Source of the DNA: Alphaproteobacteria bacterium
GTDB lineage: Bacteria > Pseudomonadota > Alphaproteobacteria > CAAHEQ01 > UBA3637
Direction of reading: 5' to 3'
DNA: 64,000 bases
Assembly: GCA_045614025.1 (NCBI GenBank)
Contig: JAZLCE010000014.1
Location: forward strand, 2,825 to 66,824
The stretch's first letter is position 1. Each line of letters begins with the position of its first letter. Below, piece by piece: positions 8,500-33,800 of the stretch. Made by a program: the position numbers and the translations under genes. The notes beneath the pieces were generated by a model that made no database searches, had not been told where the DNA came from, and was given only the letters and a program-made list of their open reading frames with translations.

Positions 8500-8667
8500 T
8501 TTTTTCTCCTTTTAATTGATTGAAACAAAAAAATTTTACAAGGAGGATATGGTTGTTTTTAAAAGAAAGCTCAATCTCAACGAAAGGATATATCTTGTTG
8601 ATTTTAAAGGAAAAGGGCTTATATCACTAAAGGTTTAACGTTTTAATTTTAATTGAAAGGAAAAAAA

Positions 8668-9249
8668 ATGACAGTTGGAACAAGATATCCCACTCTTGCA
8701 TTTCATACATCAGGTTCAGGGCAAGCAGAAGATGGCATTCCGCCACAACCTTTTGAAACATTTTGTTATGATTCAGCTTTGTTAGATGCGAAGATTCAAG
8801 ATTTTAATATCGTGCCATATACTTCTGTTTTACCACCAGAATTATATGGGAATATTGTGAGCGTTGATGAAGTGAAAGATCATTTTAAGCATGGTGCTGT
8901 TTTAGAAGTAATCATGGCGGGAAATGGAGCCAGACGTGAAGAACACAAAGCCATTGCAACAGGCGTTGGCATTTGCTGGGGTAAAGATAAAAAAGGCAAC
9001 TTTATTGGTGGTTGGGCTGCCGAATATGTTGAATATTTTGATACCTTTATTGATGATGATATTGCAAAAGCGCATGCCGAAATGTGGCTCACAAAATCAT
9101 TAAATCATGAGCTGATGCTTCGGGATGTGGAACAACATTCGGCATTCCAATTTTTCCATAACTATGTGAATGTTGAGCAATCATTTGCTTATTCTTTAAC
9201 GGCGCTTGGCTTTTTGAATTTTGAATATGCGCCCGCAATTTTAAGATAA
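8668..9249 (+). CDS. aaxB: Pyruvoyl-dependent arginine decarboxylase, chlamydial AaxB type
   Basis: [11 protein letters not shown]...[15 protein letters not shown]...FNIVPYT|SVLP...[13 protein letters not shown]...[14 protein letters not shown]...[10 protein letters not shown]...[10 protein letters not shown] matches my recollection of Chlamydia AaxB almost block for block. This includes the Thr52/Ser53 self-cleavage site (Ser codon at 8824..8826). The start is placed at the ATG at 8668 after AAAGGA. Confidence 0.85.
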
Positions 9250-9306
9250 GAAAGAAATGAAAGGCGGTCAATAATAAAAAGACTGCCTTTTTTTTATAAA
9301 GGAGAG

Positions 9307-10794
9307 ATGATGAGTGAAATGAAACAACGCGCCAGTTCTTCAAAACTGGGCATTTTCGGATTGGCAGCTATTGTTGTCAGCTCGATGATTGGAGGGGGCA
9401 TTTTTTCGCTTCCTCAAAATATGGCGCAAAATGCAGCAGTTGGATCTGTTATTTTAGCATGGGTGATAACGGGGATTGGTATGTATTTTATTGCCAATAC
9501 GTTCAGAATTTTATCAAACGTAAAACCAGATTTAACGTCTGGGATATATATGTATGCCAAAGAAGGGTTTGGCCCCTTTATGGGATTTAATATTGGGTGG
9601 AGCTATTGGCTTTGCCAAATTTTTGGAAATGTGGGGTATGCCGTGATCACTATGGATGCCTTAAATTATTTTTTTCCAGGCGTTTTTCAAGGGGGAAATA
9701 ATTTAAATTCCATTATTGGAGGCTCTTTGCTCATTTGGTTTTTTAACTTTTTGGTTTTAAGAGGGGTGAAACAAGCGGCCTTTATTAATTTGGTTGTCAC
9801 CATTGCTAAAATTGTTCCCCTTGTGTTGTTTATTATCATTTCAGCAGCCGTATTTAATTTTGATAAGTTTGATTTTGATTTTTGGGGGCAGGGTGTGGAT
9901 GATAAGTTGGGCAGTATTGCTGATCAAATTAAAAACACCATGCTGGTAACTTTGTGGGCCTTTATCGGGATTGAAGGGGCGGTTGTTTTATCAGGGCGCG
10001 CTCAAAATCAATCAGATGTGGGCAAGGCAACTTTAATTGGATTTTTGGGATGTTTAATTATTTATGTGTTGCTTTCTGTTTTGCCATTTGGTCTTTTAAC
10101 TCAAGCGCAGTTGGCTCAAATTCCAAACCCATCAACGGCCGGCGTGCTTGAACATGTGATCGGCAAAGGGGGTGCCTATTTAATGAATATCGGCATGATT
10201 GTTGCCATTTTAGCTAGCTGGCTTTCTTGGACTATGATTGTGGCGGAAATGCCCCATGCCATGGCTAAAAACGGCGCGTTTCCAAAAGTTTTTGCAGATG
10301 AAAATAAAAATGGTTCGCCAGAAGTTTCTTTATGGGTAACCAGCTTTTTAATGCAATTGGTGATGATGCTTGTTTATTTTTCAAATAATGCGTGGAATAC
10401 CATGCTTTCCATCACGGGCGTTATGGTGTTACCGGCTTACTTTATGAGTGCGCTTTATTTATGGAAGATTTGCGAAGATCATGAATTCCTTTCAAAAGCA
10501 GGGATCACAAGGTTTTCAGCATTGATTACGGGTTTTTTGGGATCAATTTATGCCTTATGGCTCATTTATGCCGCAGGTCTTTCATATTTATTAATGGCGG
10601 TGATTTTTATTGCACTTGGCATTCCGCTTTATATGATCAGCCGATATGAGCAAGGGGCAAGGTTTTTTGCGGATGAAACAGCGCCAAATGGGCTTAAAAT
10701 GTTTAATGAGTCTGAAAAAGCCTTATGTGTGATTCTTTTGGCAACAGCACTCATTGCGCTTTATGCTTTTTCGCATAAGTTGTTAACGTTATAA
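9307..10794 (+). CDS. aaxC: APC-superfamily basic amino acid antiporter (arginine/agmatine AaxC or ArcD-like)
   Basis: 495 aa with about 12-13 TM helices and an N-terminus (KLGIFGLAAIVVSSMIGGGIFSLPQNMA) typical of ArcD/AaxC-type exchangers. It lies 58 nt downstream of aaxB behind an AAGGAG RBS. Confidence 0.75.
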   Translation: MMSEMKQRASSSKLGIFGLAAIVVSSMIGGGIFSLPQNMAQNAAVGSVILAWVITGIGMYFIANTFRILSNVKPDLTSGIYMYAKEGFGPFMGFNIGWSYWLCQIFGNVGYAVITMDALNYFFPGVFQGGNNLNSIIGGSLLIWFFNFLVLRGVKQAAFINLVVTIAKIVPLVLFIIISAAVFNFDKFDFDFWGQGVDDKLGSIADQIKNTMLVTLWAFIGIEGAVVLSGRAQNQSDVGKATLIGFLGCLIIYVLLSVLPFGLLTQAQLAQIPNPSTAGVLEHVIGKGGAYLMNIGMIVAILASWLSWTMIVAEMPHAMAKNGAFPKVFADENKNGSPEVSLWVTSFLMQLVMMLVYFSNNAWNTMLSITGVMVLPAYFMSALYLWKICEDHEFLSKAGITRFSALITGFLGSIYALWLIYAAGLSYLLMAVIFIALGIPLYMISRYEQGARFFADETAPNGLKMFNESEKALCVILLATALIALYAFSHKLLTL

Positions 10795-21892: not shown

Positions 21893-22738
21893 TTAAATGT
21901 TTTTTCCAAAATAAAACCATTCTGTATTTATTTTTGCCTCATGATTTGGCATAATAATAAATCCATCAAACGGGGCATAAATTTTTTCGCCTGTTTCATA
22001 AATGGCAATTTCATCTCCTTTTTTAATGGCGTCTAAATGAATATAATTTTTGCTGAACATGCCTTCTTTTTCTTTGATTACAAAGTTTTGAAGAGTGATA
22101 ATCGTTTTTTTTGTTTCTTGGCAACTTCCTTTTAAAACGCCATAATGATACAGCATATTTAAAATGGATTTTTTGGCAACTTGAATGGCCTCAATTGATT
22201 TATGATAGCCACATTCAACTGTTAATGCACAAGTATTCTTTAAAAAGGCATATTCCTCAGTGCAATTATTTTCAATTTCATGGTTGTTTTTATAAATATC
22301 TGGCCAACCAGCAAGCGCCGTTTGAACAGGGATAATCTTCAAAAACTCAAGGTTTTCTTGACTTGGATGATCAATAAAAGCAAAGGGTTCATCTTTTTCG
22401 CAATGCGTTGAATGCAAATCTAAAAGGATATCTGCTTTTTCAATTTCTTTGATCAGCTGATTTGCAATTTTTTCTTCATTTGTTTGAGGGTTTTCATGAA
22501 ATTTAACAACACGGTTTAAATTATCCTCAATTCCGCGCACATCTTTTTGATAGGCTTGTTCGTTCACAATGGGAATAAAGGTAATGGATCCTGATTGAAG
22601 AATATGTTTTTTTTCTTGGAGTTCTCTAATAATTTCATATTGCGCTTTTGTGCCAGCGGTTTCGTTTCCATGAACCGCTCCTAAAATTAAAATATTTTTT
22701 CCTTCATTTTCATGTTTGAAAACAATTGGTTTAAACAT
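21893..22738 (-). CDS. Succinylglutamate desuccinylase/aspartoacylase (AstE/AspA, M14-like zinc deacylase) family protein
   Basis: 281 aa with ILILGAVHGNETAG (H-x-x-E zinc site), DLHST and LTVECGYH. It overlaps the upstream GNAT gene by 8 nt. Confidence 0.7.
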   Translation of the reverse strand: MFKPIVFKHENEGKNILILGAVHGNETAGTKAQYEIIRELQEKKHILQSGSITFIPIVNEQAYQKDVRGIEDNLNRVVKFHENPQTNEEKIANQLIKEIEKADILLDLHSTHCEKDEPFAFIDHPSQENLEFLKIIPVQTALAGWPDIYKNNHEIENNCTEEYAFLKNTCALTVECGYHKSIEAIQVAKKSILNMLYHYGVLKGSCQETKKTIITLQNFVIKEKEGMFSKNYIHLDAIKKGDEIAIYETGEKIYAPFDGFIIMPNHEAKINTEWFYFGKNI

Positions 22739-23564
22739 TTTGATTCTCCTTTATTTGCTGACGCAAGCGACGAATTTGCTTGATTTGTTGATGAGATCTA
22801 ATATGCAAGGGTAGGGCTGTTCTTCTAAACGCAATTTGCTTTGTTTTAGGATGATAAACACAGCCCACAAAATCATTTTGAAGTAATTTATCAATCGTTC
22901 CAAAATGATGGGATGGAATTAAAATTTCTTTTCCAATGCGTTGTGGTTGCTTATCTTTATAACACATCACGGCAATTTGCCCCCCATCACTTGGATCAAT
23001 TCCAGAAGAAAGCATTTGAAAACGATTGTTAAAATAAGGAGGCATGTTCCAATGATTATTTCTATCAATAATCGAATAAATGGCGTCACATTTAAGTTGT
23101 TTTGCAAGTTCAATGCGATATTCAATCATCAACTGATTTAAACCATTCCCTCTAAAGTTTGGATGAACGCAATCGCCTCCTAAAGTGGCAACTTTTTGCC
23201 CATTTGAAAAAGATTGATAGGGGTAGCTTGGAATTTCATCTTGAAACGTTTTTGAATTTGAGCAAACTTTTAAATAACTCATCCCAATTAATTTTGATTC
23301 ATGAAAAACACCCACAAAAATGATATCTTGTTTTTTAAAAACTTCATCATAATAAGAGGCCGAATGCTTGTGAATGAAGCATTGTTCTTCTTCTTTTAAA
23401 TGTTGATAAATCTTTTTGGAAAGAAACGCCATGGCTTGGCTATGTTTTTTAGAAAGAGGATAAATGAAAAAAGGGGCAGGGGAAATTTCTTTCCCATCTT
23501 TTTTAGTCAATAACCCAGACCAAAATCTTTGATTATTCACTGTGAATTTTGCCATCTCGCCCAT
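22731..23564 (-). CDS. GNAT-family N-acyltransferase
   Basis: 277 aa. VHPNFRGNGLNQLMIEYRIELAKQ matches the acetyl-CoA-binding motif A (R-x-x-G-x-G). An AAGGGA RBS is present. Confidence 0.6.
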   Translation of the reverse strand: MGEMAKFTVNNQRFWSGLLTKKDGKEISPAPFFIYPLSKKHSQAMAFLSKKIYQHLKEEEQCFIHKHSASYYDEVFKKQDIIFVGVFHESKLIGMSYLKVCSNSKTFQDEIPSYPYQSFSNGQKVATLGGDCVHPNFRGNGLNQLMIEYRIELAKQLKCDAIYSIIDRNNHWNMPPYFNNRFQMLSSGIDPSDGGQIAVMCYKDKQPQRIGKEILIPSHHFGTIDKLLQNDFVGCVYHPKTKQIAFRRTALPLHIRSHQQIKQIRRLRQQIKENQNV

Positions 23565-23768
23565 TTGTTTCCCTTTCTTTTATTAATAAAAAAACGAGAC
23601 CTTTTTTTGGTCCCGTTTCTGATTGTTTTGTTCTGTTGATATCAAACACCTAACGGGAGAAATCTTCCTCACGTTTAGATTGTTTCAAAGTTTTGAAAGT
23701 TGATATAAACATAAACATCCTTTTTCTTTATTAGAACTAATGATAACAGATTAAAAACATATTGTCAA
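23565..23768 (-). promoter_or_regulatory. Leader L1: promoter + ~170-nt leader + intrinsic terminator immediately upstream of the GNAT gene
   Basis: Minus strand: TTGACA (23768..23763) - 17 nt - TATCAT. The mini-ORF at 23718..23650 follows. The segment TCCCGTT (23658..23652) is complementary to the terminator 5' arm. The terminator is AACGGGACC-A7-GGTCTCGTT + T7 (23617..23588), ending 24 nt before the ATG. Confidence 0.55.
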
Positions 23769-23778
23769 TCTTATTTTT

Positions 23779-24195
23779 TTAACAATAAGTTAAATAACGA
23801 ATGCGATCAGCTGGAATTTTAATTTTGTTTTGAATAATCGGCATAGCATAAGGTTTTGTCATTTCAACTTTTTTTAAATTTGTTTCTAAATCTTTAATAA
23901 AAGCATTTGTTCCATAATCAGCGCCCACCACTAAAAGAGCATAATGTCTGACCAAATGGTTGCTTTTTAAAATGCTCACTAATTCATTTTTTTCATGAGC
24001 AAGAATATGCTTCATGCTTCTTTCGCCTTTTGTTTTTAAGCGTTCAGCATCATATTTAATGCGCAAAGCTTCTTCTTTTGGCAGTTTGTTTTTAATTCGA
24101 ACGTTCATTAATCCTAACATATAGTCATAAATCTTTTGCGATTTTAAAAGACTTTTTATTTGATCAACTTTTTCAATGTATGTTTTATCTGTCAT
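23779..24195 (-). CDS. Orphan 138-aa protein
   Basis: Clean ORF with an AAGAGGA RBS. The product is basic and helical-looking with no recognisable motif. Confidence 0.55.
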   Translation of the reverse strand: MTDKTYIEKVDQIKSLLKSQKIYDYMLGLMNVRIKNKLPKEEALRIKYDAERLKTKGERSMKHILAHEKNELVSILKSNHLVRHYALLVVGADYGTNAFIKDLETNLKKVEMTKPYAMPIIQNKIKIPADRIRYLTYC

Positions 24196-24394
24196 CTTGT
24201 TCCTCTTAATATAAAAAAAACAGCCCTTCTAAAATTAAGAGCTGTTTTTCGTTTGAATCGTTAAAATAATTAGTTCGCTAACAAAAAACGCTCCTTTTAC
24301 TTTCTAAAGTAAAAAGAGTAAAAATAAAAACCAAAAAAGTTTACTGTTTTTGTTATCATATTTTTAAAATACGCCTCCAAATATAAAATGTCAA
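24196..24394 (-). promoter_or_regulatory. Leader L2: promoter + ~150-nt leader + intrinsic terminator immediately upstream of the 138-aa gene
   Basis: Minus strand: TTGACA (24394..24389) - 17 nt - TATTTT - 6 nt - ATG of the mini-ORF at 24359..24297. The terminator is ACAGCTCTT-loop-AAGGGCTGT + T8 (24247..24213), ending 17 nt before the ATG at 24195. It could also serve as the terminator of the upstream ddpX operon. Confidence 0.45.
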
Positions 24395-24402
24395 CACCTT
24401 TT

Positions 24403-25017
24403 TTAAAGAATTGTCACATTTTTTAAAGATCGAATTAATGGATAGGTCCAAGCCTCTTTTAAATTAAAGTGCCACCATTCATGTAGAAGGGGTTCTAAAT
24501 CAATCTCTTTCATTAAATTTTCAAGCAATTCTTTGTTTTGATAGGCTGTTAAAGAAACATCATCTCCTTTATAATCGCGGTGACATTTTTTTAAATAGTC
24601 TTGAAAAGAAGGGTCTTTTTCATATCCTTCATAAAAGGCATCTGGCTTTGTTGGGAATTCAAGTTCATTTCCTTGTAAATCAGTTAAATAACAATCAATG
24701 GCAACGCCTCTGGGATGAAACCCGCGCTTAGATGTTTCTTCAGGAGGTGGAGCGATATAAGGTTTTAAATAATCTGGCGCTGTTTCAAACATATATTTTT
24801 GCACTTCAAGGGGTCTAAACGCATCATAGATCACAAGCTTTAATCCAAGAGCTTTAAGTTTGGGTTCAAGCTGAATTAATTTATCATAAAGCTCGGGATG
24901 AACCAATGCGTCTTTAAGCCCAAAATCGGAATACATATCTTTATAAAAAGCATTATGCGTTGTGGTATAAAACAAATTTGAAACAATATGTTCTGTTTGA
25001 ATTTTCTTTAAAATCAT
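24403..25017 (-). CDS. ddpX: D-alanyl-D-alanine dipeptidase (VanX/DdpX, peptidase M15D)
   Basis: 204 aa with YDAFRPLEVQ, FHPRGVAIDCYL (H-x-x-x-x-x-D zinc site) and HEWWHF, the VanX-family motifs. The start overlaps the upstream stop (TAATG). Confidence 0.75.
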   Translation of the reverse strand: MILKKIQTEHIVSNLFYTTTHNAFYKDMYSDFGLKDALVHPELYDKLIQLEPKLKALGLKLVIYDAFRPLEVQKYMFETAPDYLKPYIAPPPEETSKRGFHPRGVAIDCYLTDLQGNELEFPTKPDAFYEGYEKDPSFQDYLKKCHRDYKGDDVSLTAYQNKELLENLMKEIDLEPLLHEWWHFNLKEAWTYPLIRSLKNVTIL

Positions 25018-26687
25018 TAAGAACCCCTTTCTTGCAAGTGAGCCATTTGCTTGAATGAAATTTTATAAGCTTCTGGATATTTTGAGATTTTTTGAACAAG
25101 TTTTTCTTTGTTTTTCAATGCTTCAGCTTCAATATAACCAGGGGCAGTATTGTTCAAATAGGTGTTTAAAATCCCAGCTGTTGCTAAAACGGATTTAGCC
25201 GCCCCGATATAAGGGATCACATTCAGCACATTGGCTAATCTTTCTTCAGGTAATCTGGCAATTTCTGAAAGTTTGAGTGGTTTTTTTGTTTTGGATTCGC
25301 TGATCACGCCTAAGCTTAAAAACATTAAATCAACAGGCATCACATCTAATTTTTCTTTCAGTTTATTTTCATGAATTTGCGTTAAAAACCCTTGAAATCC
25401 TTGTTTCATTTTTTCGGCATAAGTTGATTGGAAAAATCCGCCATGCGCTAAAATGTTTGCGCTTTGAGTGGCCAGGCAAATTAAGGCACTTGAAGGCGCG
25501 ATTTGCTTTGTTTTTAATAACTCAAGCACTGTTTCTTTATCATGAGAAAGCTTATGAAGTTTAATGGCAAAGCTTTTGCGCATTTCTTTATCTTTTGAAA
25601 TGCCAACAAAAGGAGATTCATCTTCTTTCCAAGCGGCTCTTATTCCTTTTAAAGATTGTTGAAACTTATTAAAATAAGTTGGATTTGAAAAGATTTTTGA
25701 CCAAATGGAGTCTTCGCTTTGCAAGGCTTTAATCAAGAATTTTCTTGTGATTTCAGTTCCATCTAAGGTGATTTGTTGCATTCCAGCTTTGTTTAATATT
25801 TGGTTTAAAGAATAAGATTGATAAACAGCTGTTTGATCTGCAAGCGTTGAAAGATTTTCTTGTTCAAAAATGCTTTTTAATGCTTGATATTGATTTTTAA
25901 TATCATCAAACGAATAATCAAACATTCTTTTTGAAAGAAGGTTTAATTCTTGTTTTGTTTCTTCAATCAGCTGTTTTTTTCCTTCTTTTAAAGAGGAATA
26001 AGCCGTTTGAAGATTTTTTAAATTTGTTGTTGCCGTTAAATGAGAAACAATTTTAAGTGCGGCTTTATATTTTTCCTTACAAGGGCAGTTTTCTTGTTTT
26101 AAAATCGTGTTTAATGTTTTTTCTAAATGATTTAATGTGGCGGATAATAAAACGGTTTCATTAAAATATTCAGAAGATATTTTATCGCTTTGATATAAAA
26201 TGCTTTTGCTGATTTTATTATTGTTTGCAACGGGGAAAATGGTATCCCCCACTTGGAAATATCCCCCACTGCAAGGATGGGAAAGAGAAACATTTGAACC
26301 ATAAAATCCAATATGATATTTGGCGCCAGCTTGTTTCATTAACGAAGCGGAAATTAAAATATTTTGATTTAAAAGAGCTCTTGTTTCTTCTTTTTGCGGG
26401 CTATCATAATCTCTTAAAAAAGCCAAATGAGTGCCAGATTCCATAATGGGAAGATAGCTTAATTGTTTCACAACTTCTTTTGCTGTTTGTTTATCATAAA
26501 GCCGGGCCGTTTCTTCATAAATTGTTTCTAAAAGAAGAGCGGTATCAGGTGTTGTTTTATCGGTTTCTAAAAGAAAATCAGCCAGTTCTTCTTGAAAATA
26601 ATCTTTCAAAGTGCCCGAGTTATATATTTTTCTTAAAGCAGGTAATGCGGTTAAAAGATTGTTAAATTCATAAGCATTTAATGTCAT
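25017..26687 (-). CDS. Orphan 556-aa soluble protein, translationally coupled to ddpX
   Basis: Long clean ORF with an AGGAAG RBS. No TM segment, signal peptide or motif that I recognise. Confidence 0.6.
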   Translation of the reverse strand: MTLNAYEFNNLLTALPALRKIYNSGTLKDYFQEELADFLLETDKTTPDTALLLETIYEETARLYDKQTAKEVVKQLSYLPIMESGTHLAFLRDYDSPQKEETRALLNQNILISASLMKQAGAKYHIGFYGSNVSLSHPCSGGYFQVGDTIFPVANNNKISKSILYQSDKISSEYFNETVLLSATLNHLEKTLNTILKQENCPCKEKYKAALKIVSHLTATTNLKNLQTAYSSLKEGKKQLIEETKQELNLLSKRMFDYSFDDIKNQYQALKSIFEQENLSTLADQTAVYQSYSLNQILNKAGMQQITLDGTEITRKFLIKALQSEDSIWSKIFSNPTYFNKFQQSLKGIRAAWKEDESPFVGISKDKEMRKSFAIKLHKLSHDKETVLELLKTKQIAPSSALICLATQSANILAHGGFFQSTYAEKMKQGFQGFLTQIHENKLKEKLDVMPVDLMFLSLGVISESKTKKPLKLSEIARLPEERLANVLNVIPYIGAAKSVLATAGILNTYLNNTAPGYIEAEALKNKEKLVQKISKYPEAYKISFKQMAHLQERGS

Positions 26688-26881
26688 AGTCTTCCTTTTT
26701 TATAAAAAAAACTCTTTTCAAATTGAAAAGAGCTGCTATTTTGATTCTTTTATTTTAATTTTTATTACTAACAAACAGCTCCCTTTGATTTTTTAAACCA
26801 AAAAGTAAAAATGTTTGTAATAATAAAAATAATAGATGTGTTCATGTGAAATAAAATATAATTTCTTTTGAAACTTGTCAA
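26688..26881 (-). promoter_or_regulatory. Leader L3: promoter + ~140-nt leader + intrinsic terminator immediately upstream of the 556-aa gene
   Basis: Minus strand: TTGACA (26881..26876) - 17 nt - TATTTT - 7 nt - ATG of the mini-ORF at 26845..26768. AAAGGGAGCTG (26786..26776) is complementary to the 5' flank and arm of the terminator. The terminator is CTCTTTTCA-ATT-TGAAAAGAG + T8 (26736..26704), ending 16 nt before the ATG at 26687. It lies in a divergent intergenic region, so it cannot terminate an upstream gene. Confidence 0.6.
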
Positions 26882-26966
26882 TATCTTTTTTAAAAATGAT
26901 TGAAAAATTCAAAATTATTTGCTAAACTTTTCCCCATATTAATTAAAAAAAATGAAGGGTGATCAC

Positions 26967-28130
26967 ATGAAAAATAAACAGTTGGTTTCAAATATTTATT
27001 ATGTTGGTGTGGATGATAAAGAAATTGATTTATTTGAAGGGCAATATATTGTTCCAAATGGAATTTCATATAACTCTTATGTGATTATGGATGAAAAAAC
27101 AGCTGTGATGGATACGGTGGATATCCATAAAGCAGAGGAATGGCTTTCAAATTTAAAAGAAGTTTTAAATGGTAAAGAACCAGATTATTTGGTTGTTCTT
27201 CATATGGAGCCAGATCATGCAGGCAGTATTGATTTATTTTTAAAAGCTTATCCAAATACAAAAGTTGTTTCAAATCAAAAAGCATTCCAAATGATGGAAA
27301 GTTTTTTTGAAGGGATTGATTTGGAAGGCAAAAAAGTTATTATTCAAGAAGGAGAAACGCTTTTATTAGGCCAGCATTCGCTTTCATTTGTTTTTGCGCC
27401 GATGGTTCATTGGCCAGAAGTGATGGTTGCTTATGAACAAACAGAAAAGATTTTGTTTTCAGCAGATGCGTTTGGCAAATTTGGGGCGCTTGATTATGAA
27501 GAAGAATGGGATTGCGAAGCGCGCCGTTATTATATTAACATTGTGGGTAAATATGGTGCTCCTGTTCAAACGTTGCTTAAAAAAGCAAGCACACTTGATA
27601 TTCAAAAGATTTTTCCGCTCCATGGGCCGATGCTCACTGAAAATTTGGGATATTATTTAAATAAATATGATATTTGGAGCTCATATAAAGCGGAAGATAC
27701 GGGCGTTTTTATTGCCTATACCTCCATTTATGGGAACACCAAGCAAGCCGCTTTGAAGCTTAAAGAGATTTTGGATGCAAAAGGCATTAAAACAGCGATT
27801 GCCGATTTAGCCAGAGATGATATGGCAGAGGCCGTTGAAGATGCATTCAGATATTCGCATTTGGTGTTGGCAAGCCCCACATATGATGGAGATGTTTTCC
27901 CTTATATGGCCACATTTATGCACCATTTAAAAAGCAAAAATTATCAAAACAGAACCATTGGGTTTATTGAAAATGGCTCTTGGGCGCCGATGTCTGCAAA
28001 AGTGATGAAAAAAGAAATGGGAGAGCTTAAAAATATCACATTGATTGAAAATCATGTTTCAATTAAATCTGCCTTGAAAAAAGAAGATGTTGAGGCATTA
28101 AATGCGTTGGCAGAAGATTTGTTAAAGTAA
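26967..28130 (+). CDS. Flavodiiron protein (FprA-type: metallo-beta-lactamase-like diiron domain + flavodoxin domain)
   Basis: LHMEPDHAGS matches the H-x-E-x-D-H diiron motif, and the flavodoxin-like C-terminal half includes VFIAYTSIYGNTKQAA. The start is chosen at the ATG at 26967 after AAGGGTG; the track start is 26952. Confidence 0.8.
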   Translation: MKNKQLVSNIYYVGVDDKEIDLFEGQYIVPNGISYNSYVIMDEKTAVMDTVDIHKAEEWLSNLKEVLNGKEPDYLVVLHMEPDHAGSIDLFLKAYPNTKVVSNQKAFQMMESFFEGIDLEGKKVIIQEGETLLLGQHSLSFVFAPMVHWPEVMVAYEQTEKILFSADAFGKFGALDYEEEWDCEARRYYINIVGKYGAPVQTLLKKASTLDIQKIFPLHGPMLTENLGYYLNKYDIWSSYKAEDTGVFIAYTSIYGNTKQAALKLKEILDAKGIKTAIADLARDDMAEAVEDAFRYSHLVLASPTYDGDVFPYMATFMHHLKSKNYQNRTIGFIENGSWAPMSAKVMKKEMGELKNITLIENHVSIKSALKKEDVEALNALAEDLLK

Positions 28131-28142
28131 GGATAAAATAAA

Positions 28143-28640
28143 ATGAGAATGAATATCACAATTGAAAGTTTAGTTGAAGAAATCACGGATAAAAGAAATC
28201 ATCAAATCGAACCTCAAATTGAAAAAATTAAAAATTTGCTTTCAAAGGGGTGTGATGTTGATGGGCAAGATAAACATGGCAACACTTTGTTGCATCATGT
28301 GGTAACAAGCGGTAGTATTCGCATGTATAATACTGTTCAAGAAGGCGAATATAACATGCCTCAAAAAACATTTGATGCCGAATATTTAATTAAAAACTTT
28401 TCTCCAAATCCATTAATTAAAAATCATGATGGATTAACTCCAGCTATGGTGGCAGCTAAACATAAGCAAACAGCTTTATGGCAATTGCTTTCTTCTTATG
28501 AGCAAAGTTTTGTTGCCTCTCAAATTGGTGGGATTATGAAAGAAATTATTCAACATCAAAATCTTAATGTTTGTTCAAGAACGCGTGTGTTACAAGCGGC
28601 TCAAAAATTGGTTGCAAATAATCGCACCCGTTCTGAATAA
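28143..28640 (+). CDS. Small ankyrin-repeat protein
   Basis: 165 aa. GCDVDGQDKHGNTLLHHVV and HDGLTPAMVAAKHKQTALWQLL are ANK-like units. Confidence 0.6.
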   Translation: MRMNITIESLVEEITDKRNHQIEPQIEKIKNLLSKGCDVDGQDKHGNTLLHHVVTSGSIRMYNTVQEGEYNMPQKTFDAEYLIKNFSPNPLIKNHDGLTPAMVAAKHKQTALWQLLSSYEQSFVASQIGGIMKEIIQHQNLNVCSRTRVLQAAQKLVANNRTRSE

Positions 28641-30813: not shown

Positions 30814-33800
30814 TTATCTCCCACCACGGTTTATTAAACTAGAAGCGATAAAATTTTTGTTTCTTGCTGCTTGCTTTGCTTCATTTTGTGCTGAAAATTC
30901 TTTTTCTTCAATTTCTTTAATTAAAGAAACAGTTTCTTTAAGTTCTGGAAGCGTTTGAGGTGCTTTTTCTATTGGTGGCATAAAGTGTTTCATAATCAAT
31001 CTTTCAAATACAGGTGTTTGATTTTTTTGATATGGATGAGCATCAACAAAGTGAACCCCAGAGGTTGATTTATTTCCATTTAAAAGGGATTGACGAATTT
31101 TCTTTGGCAAGTTTCTTCCAATTGAAATAAGCAACACGTCATCTAATTGTTCTTGATGTTGCATCACAGAAGAAAGGCATTCTTGAACAGCTTGACTTCT
31201 TTCTTCAGGCGTTTTTCCCATTGCGCTAATATAATCGCCAAGAGCCAATAAAGCGCGTTGCATGGTTGCGCTTAATTTAGGCCGTTTCACTTTTTCTCTT
31301 GAAAAACTAGGGAAAAGACTCTTTGCCTTTTCAGCTAAAGAAGAGCTCATGCTATCTTTTGATAAAACATCAATTAAAGCGTCTGTAAAATCTTCGCCTT
31401 TATGGGATCTTGTCATTGCTTTTGCAATCAATTTACCAAGATGGCGTCTTTCATTTACAGATGGGGTATAAGGCGTTGCTTGTTGCAACATGGTGTGGCC
31501 ATTTTTATCTTTTCCCAAGTATTTGCATTCAAAATCAATGGCGCCATGGTCAAATAACGTGATCTTTGAACCATCCACGCGCACTTGAGCGCCATGTCTA
31601 TCTGAATCAATAGGGCCCATTTGCAACAAAGTGTAAAGTTCGGTAGTGAAAATCGCTTTGGCAACGGCTTTTTTATAAGCTTGTTGTTCTTTTGTTTTTT
31701 CAGGAAGATCGTTAAAATGTTCACCACTGGCCAGTTCTGTTTTTTTGAATCTTCTTCCAAAATCGCTGATATGTGCAGCTGAAATTTGAAATTCTTGCCC
31801 ATCTGCTTGAACTTGAATGCCTTTATATTGTTCTTCAGCCACTTTTGTTTGCGCGCCACCCACCAAAAAGTCAGCTTCAATGGCGGTTAAGTGTCTGGCT
31901 TGCCCAATAATGCTTGGAAGAGCGCCAAAAAGTTTTTTGTTGCATGAGGCTAATTTTTTAGAAATTGGTGTAAAAAACTTTTTAAATTGATTATTAGCCG
32001 TTTCCAAAGCATTTGGATGCAACATGGTTAAAGCATGCCCTGTTTGGGCTTCTGGATCATCTTTCACTTCAACTGTAAAGCCAAAAGACCCAGAACCAAG
32101 CAATCTTCCAACATAAGGGGTTTGCCCTTTTAATTTGCCATCATCAAATGTTTCAGCAGACTCAATGCTTTCAAAAATTTGATATCTTTTTGGTGGATTA
32201 AAGTTGCTTTTTGAGTCTTTTAAATCTTCTTTAATACTATCACTTGTTCCTGGATAAGAATGAATGGCTTGTAATGTTTTTCCACCGGCAGCGCCCATTT
32301 GTGAAAGAATTTTTTTAATCATTTCTCCAGGGCGTTGTTTTCTTTTTTCCGTTTTATGAGGTTGCGAAGTGTAGGGCACTTTTTGGGGTGGATTCATTGT
32401 ATATAAAATCGAAATGAACAAAGCTTTTGCTTCCAATGATTCGCAATTTTCAAAATAAGTATCAAGAGCCAGTGTTTGATAAGTGGCATAGTCGGTATCT
32501 TTATTCATTTCCTCTTTTATAATATTATAGTATTCTTGAATTTTTTGTGTATTAACAGTATCACCCTTTGTTGGATCAAATAATAAACTTTGCATAATCA
32601 AAGCTTGCGCTTCGGGTGGCGTTTCCCAAAACTGCCTATGGAAATTAGCCATAGCCGTTTGTTTGGTTTGATCCGATATTTGAGCTCTAAAGTCAATGCG
32701 TTGTTTGAGCTCTGGGCTTAAAAGGCCACCAAAAAATTGCCCCTGATTATATTTACGTTTTTTGTTAATGGTATAAACGATTTTGTTAGCGCTTTGTGGG
32801 GTGAGGGGTTGTTTTAAAAAGTCAAGTAAATCAATGTTAAAATTGTTTTGATGAGAGCAAATCAATCCTTCGCGTAAGCCTTGAACCTGAGCATCAATTT
32901 TATTCCCGTTTACCGTTTGGATTTTATCTCTGATTGCTAAAGAAACATCTTTTTGCGTTTCGGCTTTTTCCATTAATCGGCATAAAATGGAAGCACCAGT
33001 TATTCCAGAGAAATCTTTTAAATAAGCGTCTGGAGTCATTTGAGCAACAAATTCTTTTTTTGTAACGGAAGACTCTTTTTCCATGCCAATGCGTTTAAAA
33101 TGCAACTCGGCAATTGTTTCAATTAAAAAGTTTTTAAACTGATTATTAGCAGGCGGTGTTTCTTTTAAAATTTTGCTTGCTAATTTATAAAGATCTTCTC
33201 GATAAATTGGATCCGCCGTTTTAATTTGTTGGCGCATCATTTTCATGATCTTTTCTTCTAATGCTTCATTATAATTATAATGGTGATCGCTTAAAGCATA
33301 ATAATGCAAAAATTGATCATCCGCATTACGCAAATCCTTGAAAAGAGCGCCTTGATTATTATATTTTTGGTATTCTGTGCAAATATAAGCCAATTCTTCT
33401 TCGGGTGCCATTTTTAAATTGCTATATAAAAGATGGCGATAATTATGTTCAGCAATTTTGGCAAGAATTTGGTTTGTTTCATTTGAGCAGTTTTCATCTT
33501 GTCTTAACTGATATCCCGCCTTTGATAAATCAATATATTGATCTTTATAATCTTCTAAATTTAATTCTTTTAAGAAAGTGCGGGTAATATAGTTTCTGAT
33601 TTGTAAAAGAGTGTTACTTGTTCTTGCGGCCATATAAGAATTGGCAAAATTCTTATTGACATATAGTTTTTTGCTCAACTCTTCTAATTCCTTAAATGTT
33701 TTAGGTTGACTAATGCCTAACACTTCATAAAAATCATAGTTAAATAATTCATCAAATTTTTTGGATGTATCAAACTCAATGTTTTTTGTTAAAGGAGTGT

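What the first reader, a model, noticed from the sequence alone, without database searches (positions are those of the whole stretch)
23565..26881. Three matching promoter-leader-terminator modules gate every transcription unit of a five-gene cluster (candidate attenuator or riboswitch-like RNA family)
On the minus strand, all three units share one layout. The units are the 556-aa gene with ddpX, the 138-aa gene, and the GNAT gene with the AstE-like gene. (i) Each has a sigma70-like promoter with an identical TTGACA -35 and an exact 17-nt spacer: TTGACA-17-TATTTT at 26881 and at 24394, and TTGACA-17-TATCAT at 23768. (ii) Each has a 110-170 nt leader. (iii) Each has a strong hairpin plus a T7-T8 intrinsic terminator (26736..26704, 24247..24213, 23617..23588) ending only 16-24 nt before the start codon, between promoter and RBS. 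The 26.7-kb copy lies in a divergent intergenic region, so it cannot be the terminator of an upstream gene. In L1, TCCCGTT (23658..23652) can pair 7/7 with the terminator 5' arm AACGGGA. In L3, AAAGGGAGCTG (26786..26776) can pair over about 10 bp (two G-U pairs) with CAGCTCTTTT in the 5' flank and arm. L2 has only a weaker 6-bp version (AAGGAGC/GCTCTT). All three carry GTTAG just 3' of that segment. This is the layout of terminator/antiterminator switches. I see no known riboswitch or T-box signature, so the effector (ligand, protein or ribosome) is unknown.
Basis: partly seen in the sequence, partly recalled or inferred. Interest (0 to 1): 0.8.

Follow-up and report, generated by a model that had tools for sequence, protein, structure and literature searches.

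The report
Leader-peptide transcription attenuators, three in a row
Each of the three transcription units in this gene cluster starts with a tiny conserved reading frame followed by a terminator hairpin, the classic design by which a translating ribosome decides whether transcription continues; here it controls cell-wall-type and acyl-amino-acid genes in uncultured gut Alphaproteobacteria.

Summary
They are also conserved in related ruminant-gut Alphaproteobacteria genomes assembled from metagenomes.

- In L3 and L2 it starts 6-9 nt after the -10 box, so the transcript is probably leaderless.
- In L1 it has its own Shine-Dalgarno sequence.

The end of each uORF lies at or overlaps a "switch" strand. 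That strand pairs either backwards (helices P0 and P1; P1 covaries strongly) or forwards with the 5' arm of the terminator, forming an antiterminator. This is the trp/phe-type ribosome-mediated transcription attenuator, not a riboswitch.

There are two unrelated RNA families:
- L2 and L3 are homologous and have Phe/Ile-rich peptides.
- L1 is distinct, has a Lys/Arg-rich peptide, and travels with the GNAT gene.

Neither family matches Rfam.

The signal is inferred, not shown. It could be Phe or hydrophobic-codon starvation, or general translation stress. The regulated genes are not amino-acid biosynthesis genes. They encode a BshC-like 556-aa protein plus an M15 dipeptidase, an unknown 138-aa protein, and a GNAT plus an AstE-like deacylase.

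Verdict: a new member of a known kind, of moderate interest.

The parts
26853..26881 (-). L3 promoter-like site: TTGACA (26881-26876), 17-nt spacer, TATTTT (26858-26853)
   Evidence: Found. TTGACA with a 17-nt spacer and a TAnnnT-type -10 box in most cases is present upstream of the 556-aa gene in 15 of 15 related loci.
26768..26845 (-). uORF3: MNTSIIFIITNIFTFWFKKSKGAVC plus TAG. Its ATG lies 7 nt after the -10 box, so the transcript is probably leaderless.
   Evidence: A 24-27-codon ORF sits at the same place in 18 distinct loci. Over the 17 L2-type and clade-2 L3-type uORFs of alignment A5 there are 0 in-frame stops against 43 and 26 in the other two frames, and entropy by codon position is 0.37/0.51/0.77.
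26758..26833 (-). L3 helix P0 (26833-26813 pairs with 26776-26758), enclosing hairpin P1 (26806-26795 pairs with 26791-26779). Together they act as the anti-antiterminator.
   Evidence: Minimum-free-energy folds. In model alignment A7, P1 is 96.7% paired with 7 of 12 pairs changed on both sides, and P0 is 86.7% paired.
26768..26786 (-). L3 switch strand AAAGGGAGCUGUUUGUUAG, covering the last uORF codons and the stop. It pairs with the terminator's 5' arm (26735-26724) to form the antiterminator.
   Evidence: Duplex of -15.4 kcal/mol against -6.4 for shuffles. All 18 L3-type leaders give -15 to -20 kcal/mol, z = -4 to -6.
26704..26735 (-). L3 intrinsic terminator: CAGCUCUUUUCA-AUU-UGAAAAGAG followed by U8. 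It ends 17 nt before the ATG of the 556-aa gene.
   Evidence: -10.5 kcal/mol.
24403..26687 (-). Unit 1 genes: a 556-aa protein (26687-25017; no Pfam match; predicted fold resembles BshC) overlapping an M15 D-Ala-D-Ala-dipeptidase-like gene (25017-24403).
   Evidence: The pair is conserved in every locus examined except L024, where the next gene is a 97-aa protein.
24366..24394 (-). L2 promoter-like site: TTGACA, 17-nt spacer, TATTTT
   Evidence: A TTGAC(A/T) -35 box is conserved in the relatives.
24297..24359 (-). uORF2: MITKTVNFFGFYFYSFYFRK plus TAA. Its ATG lies 6 nt after the -10 box.
   Evidence: The peptide is nearly identical in 9 loci, and Phe codons vary synonymously between TTT and TTC.
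24278..24318 (-). L2 hairpin P1 (24318-24291) and switch strand AGGAGCGUUUUUUGUUAG (24295-24278). The switch strand pairs with 24253-24237 to form the antiterminator.
   Evidence: Hairpin. Antiterminator duplex of -17.0 kcal/mol, z = -5.3; the other seven L2-type leaders give -15.8 to -18.3 kcal/mol.
24213..24247 (-). L2 intrinsic terminator, ending 18 nt before the ATG of the 138-aa gene (24195-23779)
   Evidence: -12.7 kcal/mol.
23740..23768 (-). L1 promoter-like site: TTGACA, 17-nt spacer, TATCAT with an upstream TG. It is the best-scoring site in the scan.
23650..23725 (-). L1 Shine-Dalgarno sequence (AAAAAGGA, 23725-23718) and uORF1: MFISTFKTLKQSKREEDFSR plus TAG (23712-23650)
   Evidence: An AAGGAG-like sequence lies 5-7 nt before the ATG, and a 19-27-codon ORF is present, in all 13 loci examined. 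In-frame 3-nt indels occur in the alignment.
23634..23674 (-). L1 region 1 ACGUGAGG (23674-23667) and region 2 UCUCCCGUU (23660-23652), which pair to form P1. Region 2 alternatively pairs with AACGGGA (23617-23611) to form the antiterminator. The 3' strand of P0 is at 23647-23634.
   Evidence: Consensus fold. The antiterminator core is 93% paired in 8 of 8 sequences but is invariant, so there is no covariation. Folds.
23588..23618 (-). L1 intrinsic terminator: AAACGGGACC-A7-GGUCUCGUUU followed by a U-run. It ends 24 nt before the GNAT ATG.
   Evidence: The top of the stem covaries between CC/GG and UU/AA.
21893..23564 (-). Unit 3 genes: a GNAT acetyltransferase (23564-22731) overlapping an AstE/AspA-type deacylase (22738-21893)

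Best explanation
Each of the three leaders is a ribosome-mediated (leader-peptide) transcription attenuator.

Proposed sequence of events:
1. A sigma70-type promoter starts a roughly 160-nt leader whose first element is a short ORF. In L2 and L3 the ORF is leaderless. In L1 it has a Shine-Dalgarno sequence.
2. Without a ribosome, the 5' part of the uORF pairs with its own 3' end (helix P0) around a hairpin (P1). This locks up a U/G-rich switch strand, so the downstream terminator hairpin forms and transcription stops 17-24 nt before the structural gene.
3. A ribosome that enters the uORF melts P0 and P1. If it runs smoothly to the stop codon, it covers the switch strand itself, and the terminator still forms.
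4. If it stalls in the middle of the uORF (about codons 10-17, on or just before the 5' arm of P1), the switch strand is free. It pairs with the linker and the terminator's 5' arm (the antiterminator), and RNA polymerase reads into the gene.

Shown here:
- the conserved uORFs;
- P0, P1 and the terminator, with covariation for P1 and the terminator;
- conserved antiterminator pairing potential that overlaps the uORF end.

Inferred:
- the transcription start sites;
- that the uORFs are translated;
- the stalling signal.

My best guess for the signal in L2 and L3 is shortage of charged tRNA-Phe, with Ile, Tyr and Trp codons also contributing. Phe makes up 14-33% of these peptides against 4.8% of the local proteome, as in pheL and pheM. 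For L1 the candidate control codons are the Lys/Arg codons that sit on region 1. A general slowdown of translation is about as likely.
For: Anatomy and conservation
- Anatomy is confirmed.
- A uORF is present in every homologous leader: 18 L3-type, 9 L2-type and 13 L1-type loci. It is also present in three distant, GC-richer homologues of the 556-aa gene, whose leaders are unrelated in sequence (L019, L023, L024).

Signs that the uORFs are coding
- In-frame stops number 0, against 43 and 26 in the other two frames. Third codon positions are the most variable: 0.77 against 0.37 and 0.51.
- The stop codon switches among TGA, TAA and TAG at one aligned position.
- Indels in the L1 uORF are in frame.
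- An AAGGAG-like Shine-Dalgarno sequence lies 5-7 nt upstream of every L1-type ATG.
- The L2/L3 ATG keeps a fixed distance of 6-9 nt from the -10 box.

Structure
- On the covariance-model alignment A7, 91.4% of cells are paired against 54-63% when partners are slid. 21 of 34 pairs have double changes, and 0 of 500 shuffles reach the observed values.

Antiterminator
- Duplex energies: L3-type -15 to -20 kcal/mol (z = -4 to -6); L2-type -16 to -18 (z = -5 to -7); L1-type -11 to -14.5.
- In clade 2, 94% of cells are paired against about 60% when slid.

Folding with a ribosome mask
- On transcripts truncated before the terminator's 3' arm, the 5' arm is sequestered when the A site is at about codons 10-17. 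It is released once the ribosome reaches the last codons.
- Stepwise folding without a ribosome gives P0 + P1 and then the terminator for L3 and L1.

Other
- The leaders are better conserved than the neighbouring genes.
- Phe, Ile and Lys are enriched in the peptides.
- No riboswitch or T-box hit was found.
- Leaderless leader-peptide attenuators have been described in Deinococcus (PMC4007540), Corynebacterium (PMC10272879) and mycobacteria (bioRxiv 10.1101/834739); I read only the titles and abstracts listed.
Against: - There are no transcript or ribosome data. Start sites, translation and termination are all predicted.
- The antiterminator helices show conserved pairing but no double compensatory changes. 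The L1 core is invariant, and clade-2 changes are only A-U/G-U transitions.
- At equilibrium on the full-length leader, the terminator wins at nearly every ribosome position. The switch must therefore be kinetic.
- For L2, and for many clade-2 leaders, the truncated transcript without a ribosome already prefers a partial antiterminator. The 'no translation = off' state is thus not secure for those leaders.
- No single amino acid is enriched in all the uORFs. The distant ones (L019, L023, L024) are not Phe-rich.
- The regulated genes have no evident link to Phe or Lys metabolism.
- The C-terminal part of the L1 uORF is read in different frames in different genomes. That part is therefore under RNA-level rather than peptide-level constraint.
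Confidence: 0.72

Rival explanations
1. The leaders are translation-independent riboregulators. The P0/P1 domain, with its 27-nt U-rich bulge, would bind a small ligand or an RNA-binding protein (a TRAP-, PyrR- or Hfq-like factor recognising UUU triplets spaced 6 nt apart). Binding would stabilise P0 and favour termination. On this view the 'uORFs' are by-products of U-rich RNA.
For: - P0 and P1 form a conserved structured domain.
- The U-rich bulge of L2 is nearly invariant at the nucleotide level, including many third codon positions.
- The 3' part of the L1 uORF is conserved as RNA in different reading frames.
- The start codon itself lies inside P0 in clade 2 and in L2.
Against: - No Rfam family reaches threshold. 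The best hits are MCS4 at 30 bits against 56 needed, and PyrR at 22 bits against 54.
- P1 loops vary in length and sequence, and there are no conserved junction nucleotides of the kind an aptamer would need.
- The reading frame, the start codon, the Shine-Dalgarno sequence (L1) and the position of the stop codon relative to the switch strand are kept in more than 40 sequences. This includes leaders with unrelated sequence.
- No gene for a candidate RNA-binding regulator is conserved in the cluster.
Confidence: 0.1
2. The short ORFs are genes in their own right, for example small hydrophobic membrane peptides, peptide precursors, or attenuator-derived small RNAs. Each would have its own promoter and a leaky terminator, as with a precursor gene placed ahead of its processing enzymes. 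The downstream genes would then be expressed simply by constitutive partial read-through.
For: - The L2/L3 peptides have a charged N-terminus, a 13-15-residue hydrophobic core and a basic tail. They are strongly conserved, and L2 is nearly identical across genomes whose proteins are 52-70% identical.
- Strong promoters followed by strong terminators would make abundant transcripts of about 140 nt.
- In Sinorhizobium, the attenuator RNA rnTrpL and its peptide peTrpL act in trans (PMC6614838, PMC7298713; abstracts seen).
Against: - This does not explain the conserved alternative pairing of the uORF's 3' end with the terminator's 5' arm.
- It does not explain helix P0.
- Peptide C-termini vary, and in L1 they are read in different frames.
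- The hydrophobic cores are too short for a membrane span.
- Three different 'precursors' in front of unrelated enzymes would be unusual.
- This idea is compatible with, rather than exclusive of, attenuation.
Confidence: 0.1
3. The hairpins are ordinary terminators of the upstream genes, and the promoter-like hexamers are chance matches in AT-rich DNA.
For: - The L2 and L1 hairpins do lie downstream of the M15 and 138-aa genes and would also stop transcripts coming from upstream.
- Promoter-like and terminator-like sites are not enriched overall in this AT-rich region.
- Another terminator lies 12 nt before an ORF, at 9260-9295.
Against: - L3 lies between divergent genes, so there is no upstream gene to terminate.
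- There is no room for a promoter between the terminators and the start codons (17-24 nt).
- TTGACA, the uORF, P0/P1 and the terminator are conserved together in up to 18 loci. The L1 leader follows the GNAT gene into four unrelated genomic contexts.
Confidence: 0.03

Closest known systems
Phe-codon leader-peptide attenuators of E. coli (pheL before pheA, pheM before pheST); from my own knowledge, plus PMC3082878 (abstract seen)
   Same: - A short leader ORF rich in Phe codons (uORF2 has 7 Phe in 20 residues; from memory, pheL has 7 in 15).
- The ORF overlaps the first strand of a set of mutually exclusive helices that ends in an intrinsic terminator just before the structural gene.
- A ribosome stalled on the control codons frees the antiterminator strand.
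   Different: - No sequence or Rfam relationship.
- The uORF is apparently leaderless.
- An extra closing helix (P0) joins the start and the end of the uORF.
- The regulated genes are not Phe biosynthesis or PheRS genes. They encode a BshC-like protein plus an M15 dipeptidase, and an unknown 138-aa protein.
- The Phe bias is not universal in the family: clade 1 is Ile/Phe-rich, and distant members are neither.
Leaderless leader-peptide attenuators of Actinobacteria and Deinococcus: Corynebacterium ilvB uORF (PMC10272879, PMC11857589), mycobacterial poly-Cys uORFs (bioRxiv 10.1101/834739), Deinococcus deserti (PMC4007540)
   Same: The transcript begins at or next to the AUG of a short regulatory ORF, and that ORF controls the downstream genes of the operon.
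   Different: - A different phylum (Alphaproteobacteria).
- Different sequences.
- The targets are not amino-acid biosynthesis genes.
- The leaderless status here rests only on the 6-9-nt distance from the -10 box to the ATG.
trpL attenuator of Sinorhizobium meliloti (rnTrpL/peTrpL; PMC6614838, PMC7298713)
   Same: It is an alphaproteobacterial ribosome-dependent attenuator with a uORF and a terminator. It releases a short leader RNA and a peptide that can have further roles.
   Different: - It has Trp control codons and a Trp biosynthesis target.
- There is no sequence similarity.
- No trans-acting role is known or tested for the leaders described here.
uORF attenuators that sense translation stress or non-biosynthetic signals: whiB7 uORF (PMC10274678); from my own knowledge, the erm/cat/ABC-F resistance leaders and Salmonella mgtL/mgtP
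   Same: Ribosome stalling in a short leader ORF switches a terminator/antiterminator pair in front of genes that are not amino-acid biosynthesis genes.
   Different: - Those systems have a demonstrated stalling signal (a drug, Ala, Pro or Mg2+) and known target functions. Here both are unknown.
- There is no evidence that the GNAT or M15 genes confer drug resistance.

Membership tests
Ribosome-mediated (leader-peptide) transcription attenuator | A short ORF with a usable start signal, early in the leader | tested here: met
   - uORFs of 19-27 codons are present in all homologous leaders.
- L1-type uORFs have an AAGGAG-like sequence 5-7 nt upstream.
- The L2/L3-type ATG lies 6-9 nt after the -10 box, so these transcripts are inferred to be leaderless.
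- Frame and codon-position statistics support coding.
Ribosome-mediated (leader-peptide) transcription attenuator | An intrinsic terminator between the uORF and the first structural gene | tested here: met
   Hairpins of -10.5 to -14.8 kcal/mol, each followed by U7-U8, end 17-24 nt before the ATG. The stems covary.
Ribosome-mediated (leader-peptide) transcription attenuator | An antiterminator that excludes the terminator and whose 5' strand a ribosome at the end of the uORF would cover | tested here: met
   - The switch strand, defined from the stop-codon position, pairs with the terminator's 5' arm in 18 of 18 L3-type leaders (z = -4 to -6).
- The same holds for 8 of 8 L2-type leaders and for the L1-type core.
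- Pairing is kept in 93-94% of cells against about 60% when partners are slid.
- There are no double compensatory changes, so the pairing is supported by conservation only.
Ribosome-mediated (leader-peptide) transcription attenuator | An anti-antiterminator (the 1:2 helix) involving uORF codons | tested here: met
   P0 and P1 are found in individual folds and in the model alignment. P1 is 96.7% paired with 7 of 12 pairs covarying.
Ribosome-mediated (leader-peptide) transcription attenuator | A cluster of control codons for one amino acid at or just before region 1 | tested here: inconclusive
   - Phe is 33% of L2 peptides, 21% of L3 clade 2, and 14% (plus Ile at 20%) of L3 clade 1, against 4.8% (Ile 7.0%) in the local proteome.
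- L1 peptides are 16% Lys against 8%.
- Distant family members are not enriched.
Ribosome-mediated (leader-peptide) transcription attenuator | The regulated operon makes or charges the sensed amino acid (the classical subclass only) | tested here: not met
   The targets are a BshC-like 556-aa protein plus an M15 dipeptidase, an unknown 138-aa protein, and a GNAT plus an AstE-like deacylase.
Ribosome-mediated (leader-peptide) transcription attenuator | Read-through depends on uORF translation or stalling in vivo or in vitro | not testable with these tools
   This needs Term-seq, reporter fusions or coupled in-vitro transcription-translation.
Rfam leader, riboswitch and T-box families (including Phe_leader, Trp_leader, T-box, PyrR) | A match to the family covariance model at its gathering score | tested here: not met
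   Only two tRNAs reach gathering score in the whole window. The permissive scan of 23400-27000 gives only sub-threshold hits: MCS4 at 30.4 bits against 56, and PyrR at 21.9 bits against 54.
Drug-inducible uORF attenuators of resistance genes (erm, cat, ABC-F type) | The downstream gene is a resistance determinant, and stalling needs the drug | not tested
   The GNAT and the VanX/DdpX-like M15 peptidase belong to broad families that include resistance enzymes. Matches to VanX are weak, at 26 bits against a cut-off of 320. Drug dependence cannot be tested here.

The most novel reading that the evidence does not exclude
The uORFs may not be amino-acid-starvation sensors. They could instead be sequence-specific arrest peptides, or sensors of mischarged tRNA such as D-aminoacyl-tRNA. 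On this reading they would couple ribosome stalling on aromatic or hydrophobic codons to a previously unrecognised module that handles cell-wall precursors or D-amino acids.

That module would consist of a BshC-like (class-I-aaRS-like) ligase, a D-Ala-D-Ala dipeptidase (with an alanine racemase in some genomes), a GNAT and an N-acyl-amino-acid deacylase. The leaderless design would insulate each unit: transcripts arriving from upstream could not translate the internal uORF and would terminate.
Probability: 0.1. Interest if true: 0.8.

Novelty: new member of a known kind. Interest (0 to 1): 0.5.

Why it matters
This work gives two new, well-defined attenuator RNA families that are absent from Rfam. 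They come from an uncultured, AT-rich lineage of ruminant- and gut-associated Alphaproteobacteria. The families are supported by over 40 instances in all, which is enough to seed covariance models.

Classical leader-peptide attenuation is shown here in an unusual arrangement:
- it is probably leaderless;
- it is used three times in tandem;
- it controls genes that are not amino-acid biosynthesis genes.

The attenuators also flag an uncharacterised but conserved gene pair: a 556-aa protein with a BshC-like fold plus an M15 D-Ala-D-Ala-dipeptidase-like protein, sometimes with an alanine racemase or next to ftsI/murE. This pair appears to be tightly regulated by translation status. That link gives a concrete handle for finding out what these genes do and what the cell is sensing.

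Tried and rejected
- **Equilibrium folding of full-length leaders with a ribosome footprint mask.** The terminator stays at P = 0.5-1.0 at every ribosome position, so this test could not discriminate. I replaced it with folding of transcripts truncated before the terminator's 3' arm and with stepwise folding.
- **RNAalifold on the plain MAFFT alignment of L2/L3 leaders.** It returned only the antiterminator, because the terminator register shifts between clades. This was solved by building covariance model R1 and realigning.
- **Looking for further copies.** Models R1 and R2 found none in the 64-kb window or in the 24 related loci held at the time (L001-L024; about 260 kb searched including the window), apart from the syntenic sites. 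Whole genomes could not be searched.
- **Metagenome scan for more 556-aa homologues.** It added only 3 loci.
- **Function of the regulated genes.**
  - Pfam, NCBIfam and a PDB sequence search gave nothing for the 556-aa protein. Pfam and NCBIfam also gave nothing for the 138-aa protein.
  - A fold search of the 138-aa model gave nothing.
  - The 556-aa model gave only BshC (probability 0.99 but TM-score 0.37). That is a lead, not an assignment.
  - PDB sequence searches for the GNAT and the M15 protein were uninformative.
- **Riboswitch, T-box or PyrR membership.** Rejected on the Rfam scans.
- **A single shared RNA family for all three leaders.** Rejected: L1 matches neither R1 nor the L2/L3 sequences.
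- **Literature.** Searches for a prior description found none.

Full report
**1. Observation**

I read the minus strand of 23300-27100.
- The promoter/terminator scan of 17-36 kb lists TTGACA-17-TATCAT at 23768 (11 of 12 matches, with an upstream TG). It also lists TTGACA-17-TATTTT at 26881 and at 24394. All three are among its best sites.
- The hairpin+T-run sites at 23620-23590, 24250-24215 and 26734-26710 are the three best minus-strand terminator-like sites.
- As classes, such sites are not enriched in this AT-rich DNA: 61 promoter-like sites against 70 expected, and 17 terminator-like sites against 15. The case therefore rests on position and conservation.
- My own scan of the whole window finds the U-runs ending 17, 18 and 24 nt before the ATGs of the 556-aa, 138-aa and 277-aa ORFs. 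There is hardly any other such case in 64 kb.
- Rfam gives only two tRNAs at gathering score. It gives only sub-threshold noise in the region.

**2.

The ORF list at 20 aa or more contains three short ORFs:
- uORF3: MNTSIIFIITNIFTFWFKKSKGAVC (26845-26768).
- uORF2: MITKTVNFFGFYFYSFYFRK (24359-24297).
- uORF1: MFISTFKTLKQSKREEDFSR (23712-23650; the list gives it from an upstream in-frame ATG at 23718).

The uORF3 and uORF2 ATGs lie 7 and 6 nt after the -10 box. These transcripts would therefore be leaderless or nearly so. This is an inference, because no start site has been mapped. uORF1 has AAAAAGGA five nt upstream of its ATG.

**3. Relatives**

*The organism.* The 556-aa protein has 45 homologues in the large protein collection. 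Every one that carries a source name is a metagenome-assembled 'Alphaproteobacteria bacterium'. A genome scan returned 16 loci, most from ruminant gut or rumen samples, with 31-40% GC. Further loci came from metagenomes and from look-ups of individual proteins.

*The L3-type leader.* In every locus with upstream DNA, the gene is preceded by the same series of elements:
- TTGACA, a 17-nt spacer and a -10 box;
- an ATG 7-9 nt further on;
- a 24-27-codon ORF, for example MTKSVNFFAFDFFSFWFWQNREKSFLL or MLKMQNFIIIIFTLLFIKQGRAVC;
- a hairpin, a linker, a terminator, and then a Shine-Dalgarno sequence and the ATG.

Three distant homologues with 44-48% GC (L019, L023, L024) have leaders of unrelated sequence. 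They still show a promoter, a 23-26-codon ORF and a terminator just before the start codon.

*The L2- and L1-type leaders.* In the nine genomes that share the five-gene synteny, the L2 and L1 leaders are also present.
- uORF2 is almost invariant.
- uORF1 is always preceded by an AAGGAG-like sequence.

*Where the GNAT gene goes.* The GNAT gene, usually with the AstE-like gene, occurs in other genomic contexts in more distant genomes. It keeps an L1-type leader there (L025-L028).

*How well the leaders are conserved.* The leaders are better conserved than the adjacent coding genes, at 73-93% against 62-82% nucleotide identity.

**4. Are the uORFs coding?**

Over the 17 L2-type and clade-2 L3-type leaders:
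- The uORF frame has 0 stops within its span, against 43 and 26 in the other two frames.
- Column entropy is 0.37, 0.51 and 0.77 for codon positions 1, 2 and 3.
- Asn6 varies only between AAT and AAC.
- Phe codons vary between TTT and TTC.
- The stop codon is TGA, TAA or TAG at the same aligned position.

In the L1 alignment the indels inside the uORF are 3 nt long. However, the last codons of uORF1 are read in different frames in different genomes while the nucleotides UCUCCCGU stay fixed. That segment is therefore constrained as RNA.

Taken together, translation is strongly indicated but not demonstrated.

**5. RNA structure**

*Helices in the free leader.* Individual minimum-free-energy folds give the following in essentially all leaders:
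- A 10-12-bp hairpin, P1. Its 5' arm is made of uORF codons (...S F W F...).
- A terminator.
- In most leaders, a closing helix, P0. It pairs the 5' part of the uORF with the sequence around its stop codon. In clade 2 and in L2 this includes the AUG itself: AUGACAAAAAG with CUUUUUGUUGU.

*Covariance models.*
- Model R1, built from the L2-type and clade-2 L3-type leaders, recovers all of them at 99-131 bits. It also recovers the clade-1 L3 leaders, including the window's, at 37-43 bits with E = 1e-4 to 1e-3. L2 and L3 are therefore homologous. R1 finds nothing else in the window or in 24 loci.
- On the model alignment, 91.4% of cells pair, against 54-63% with slid partners. 21 of 34 pairs have changes on both sides, and 0 of 500 shuffles reach the observed values. 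P1 alone is 96.7% paired with 7 of 12 covarying pairs. This alignment is fitted to the model, which favours the structure.
- Model R2 (L1 family) hits only the site upstream of GNAT. Its P1 and terminator are supported by RNAalifold, with five covarying pairs.

**6. The switch**

*Antiterminator pairing.* The strand made of the 3' end of P1 plus the 3' strand of P0 is also complementary to the end of the linker plus the terminator's 5' arm. I defined this strand only by the position of the uORF stop codon (the last 8 codons plus 4 nt). Results by leader type:
- L3-type (18 leaders): -15 to -20 kcal/mol, against about -6 for shuffles (z = -4 to -6).
- L2-type: the strand starts at the stop codon and gives -16 to -18 kcal/mol (z = -5 to -7).
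- L1-type: -11 to -14.5 kcal/mol.

*Pairing potential.* It is kept in 93-94% of cells, against about 60% with slid partners. The changes are one-sided A-U/G-U transitions, or the columns are invariant. The antiterminator is therefore supported by conservation, not by compensatory covariation.

*Folding with and without a ribosome.*
- I folded transcripts truncated before the terminator's 3' arm, with everything up to the ribosome's leading edge masked. The 5' arm is sequestered (7-9 or more nt) while the A site is at about codons 10-17. It is released once the ribosome reaches the last codons or the stop.
- Stepwise folding without a ribosome keeps P0 + P1 and then forms the terminator in L3 and L1. 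L2 drifts to a partial antiterminator.
- Full-length equilibrium folding always favours the terminator, so the decision must be kinetic. From my own knowledge, the same holds for the trp attenuator.

**7. Mechanism**

The anatomy is that of a ribosome-mediated attenuator with three states:
- No ribosome: P0, P1 and the terminator form, and the unit is off.
- Ribosome at the stop codon: the switch strand is covered, the terminator forms, and the unit is off.
- Ribosome stalled in mid-uORF: the switch strand is free, the antiterminator forms, and the unit is on.

The stalling signal is inferred from composition.
- Phe is 33% of L2 peptides and 21% of clade-2 L3 peptides. It is 14% of clade-1 L3 peptides, which are also 20% Ile. 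Phe is 4.8% of the window's proteins.
- Lys is 16% of L1 peptides against 8%, and the K-x-K-R codons sit on region 1.
- This resembles pheL and pheM. The bias is not universal, however, and the targets are not biosynthetic genes. General translation stress is therefore an equally reasonable signal.

One further inference concerns uORF2. Because it is leaderless, only transcripts that start at its own promoter can translate it. RNA arriving from the upstream unit would fold into the off state and terminate. Each module would then serve both as the terminator of the preceding unit and as the regulated start of the next.

**8. What is regulated**

- The 556-aa protein has no Pfam, NCBIfam or PDB sequence match. 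A confident AlphaFold model (pLDDT 88) has one fold neighbour, the bacillithiol enzyme BshC (4wbd; probability 0.99, TM-score 0.37).
- It is coupled to an M15 D-Ala-D-Ala-dipeptidase-like gene in every locus examined except one.
- It is followed by an alanine racemase in L021 and L023. In L024 no M15 gene follows; the next genes encode an ftsL-sized protein, FtsI and a Mur ligase.
- These neighbours hint at cell-wall or D-Ala chemistry. The function remains unknown.
- The 138-aa protein is helical and has no relatives of known function.
- Unit 3 consists of a GNAT plus an AstE/AspA-type deacylase. The closest solved relatives of the deacylase are N-acetyl-diaminobutyrate deacetylases and succinylglutamate desuccinylase/aspartoacylase-type proteins.

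**9. Comparison and novelty**

Leader-peptide attenuation is textbook biology. Leaderless versions are described in Deinococcus, Corynebacterium and mycobacteria. uORF attenuators of non-biosynthetic genes are also known, for example whiB7, and from my own knowledge mgtL and resistance-gene leaders.

I found no description of these particular leaders, and they have no Rfam model.

They are therefore new members of a known kind, with some unusual traits:
- two unrelated families in tandem in one cluster;
- a probably leaderless uORF whose AUG lies in the closing helix;
- uncharacterised targets.

With the ribosome as the likely effector, I rate the interest at about 0.5.

Noticed in passing
window 25017-26687 (-); loci L001-L024: The 556-aa protein family has no Pfam, NCBIfam or PDB sequence match, yet it gives a confident AlphaFold model whose only fold neighbour is BshC (4wbd). 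In every locus examined except L024 it is coupled to an M15 D-Ala-D-Ala-dipeptidase-like gene. An alanine racemase follows in L021 and L023. In L024 no M15 gene follows; the next genes encode a 97-aa protein, FtsI and a Mur ligase. It may be an uncharacterised ligase acting in cell-wall or D-Ala chemistry.
   Followed up: partly
L025:3846-3982, L026:3826-3980, L027:3832-3977, L028:3825-3977: The L1-type leader (Shine-Dalgarno sequence, uORF with a K-Q-L-K-x-K-R motif, CCCG/CGGG switch, terminator) stays attached to the GNAT gene in four genomes where that gene sits in quite different neighbourhoods. Leader and gene therefore move as a unit.
   Followed up: yes
window 24213-24359 (-) compared with L002-L007 and L020: The L2 leader is 80-93% identical in nucleotides across genomes whose flanking genes are only 62-82% identical. 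This includes the unpaired U-rich stretch. The constraint is stronger than structure plus coding alone would readily explain, so the terminated leader RNA or its peptide might have a role in trans.
   Followed up: partly
window L2 (24213-24359) compared with L3 (26704-26845): In the synteny clade, the leader of the 138-aa gene (L2) looks much more like the 556-aa-gene leaders of distant genomes (119 bits on model R1) than that clade's own 556-aa-gene leader does (39 bits). This suggests a duplication followed by divergence of the original copy.
   Followed up: partly
window 1153-1183 and 1358-1389 (both strands), next to the tRNA at 1398-1470: The same perfect hairpin, ACCACCCATAAAGGGTGGT with flanking T/A runs (a bidirectional terminator-like element), occurs twice about 200 nt apart beside a tRNA gene.
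   Followed up: no
window 9260-9295 (+): A terminator-like hairpin with a T8 run sits just after the ORF at 8653-9249 and only 12 nt before the start of the 495-aa ORF at 9307. This is another gene start placed directly behind a terminator. No promoter or uORF was looked for.
   Followed up: no
window 26952-28640 (+), 30814-35916 (-): Divergent from L3 lie a flavodiiron-type protein (metallo-beta-lactamase-fold ODP domain plus flavodoxin domain) and a small ankyrin-repeat protein. This pair is also conserved next to the cluster in L020. A 1700-aa ORF lies further on.
   Followed up: no
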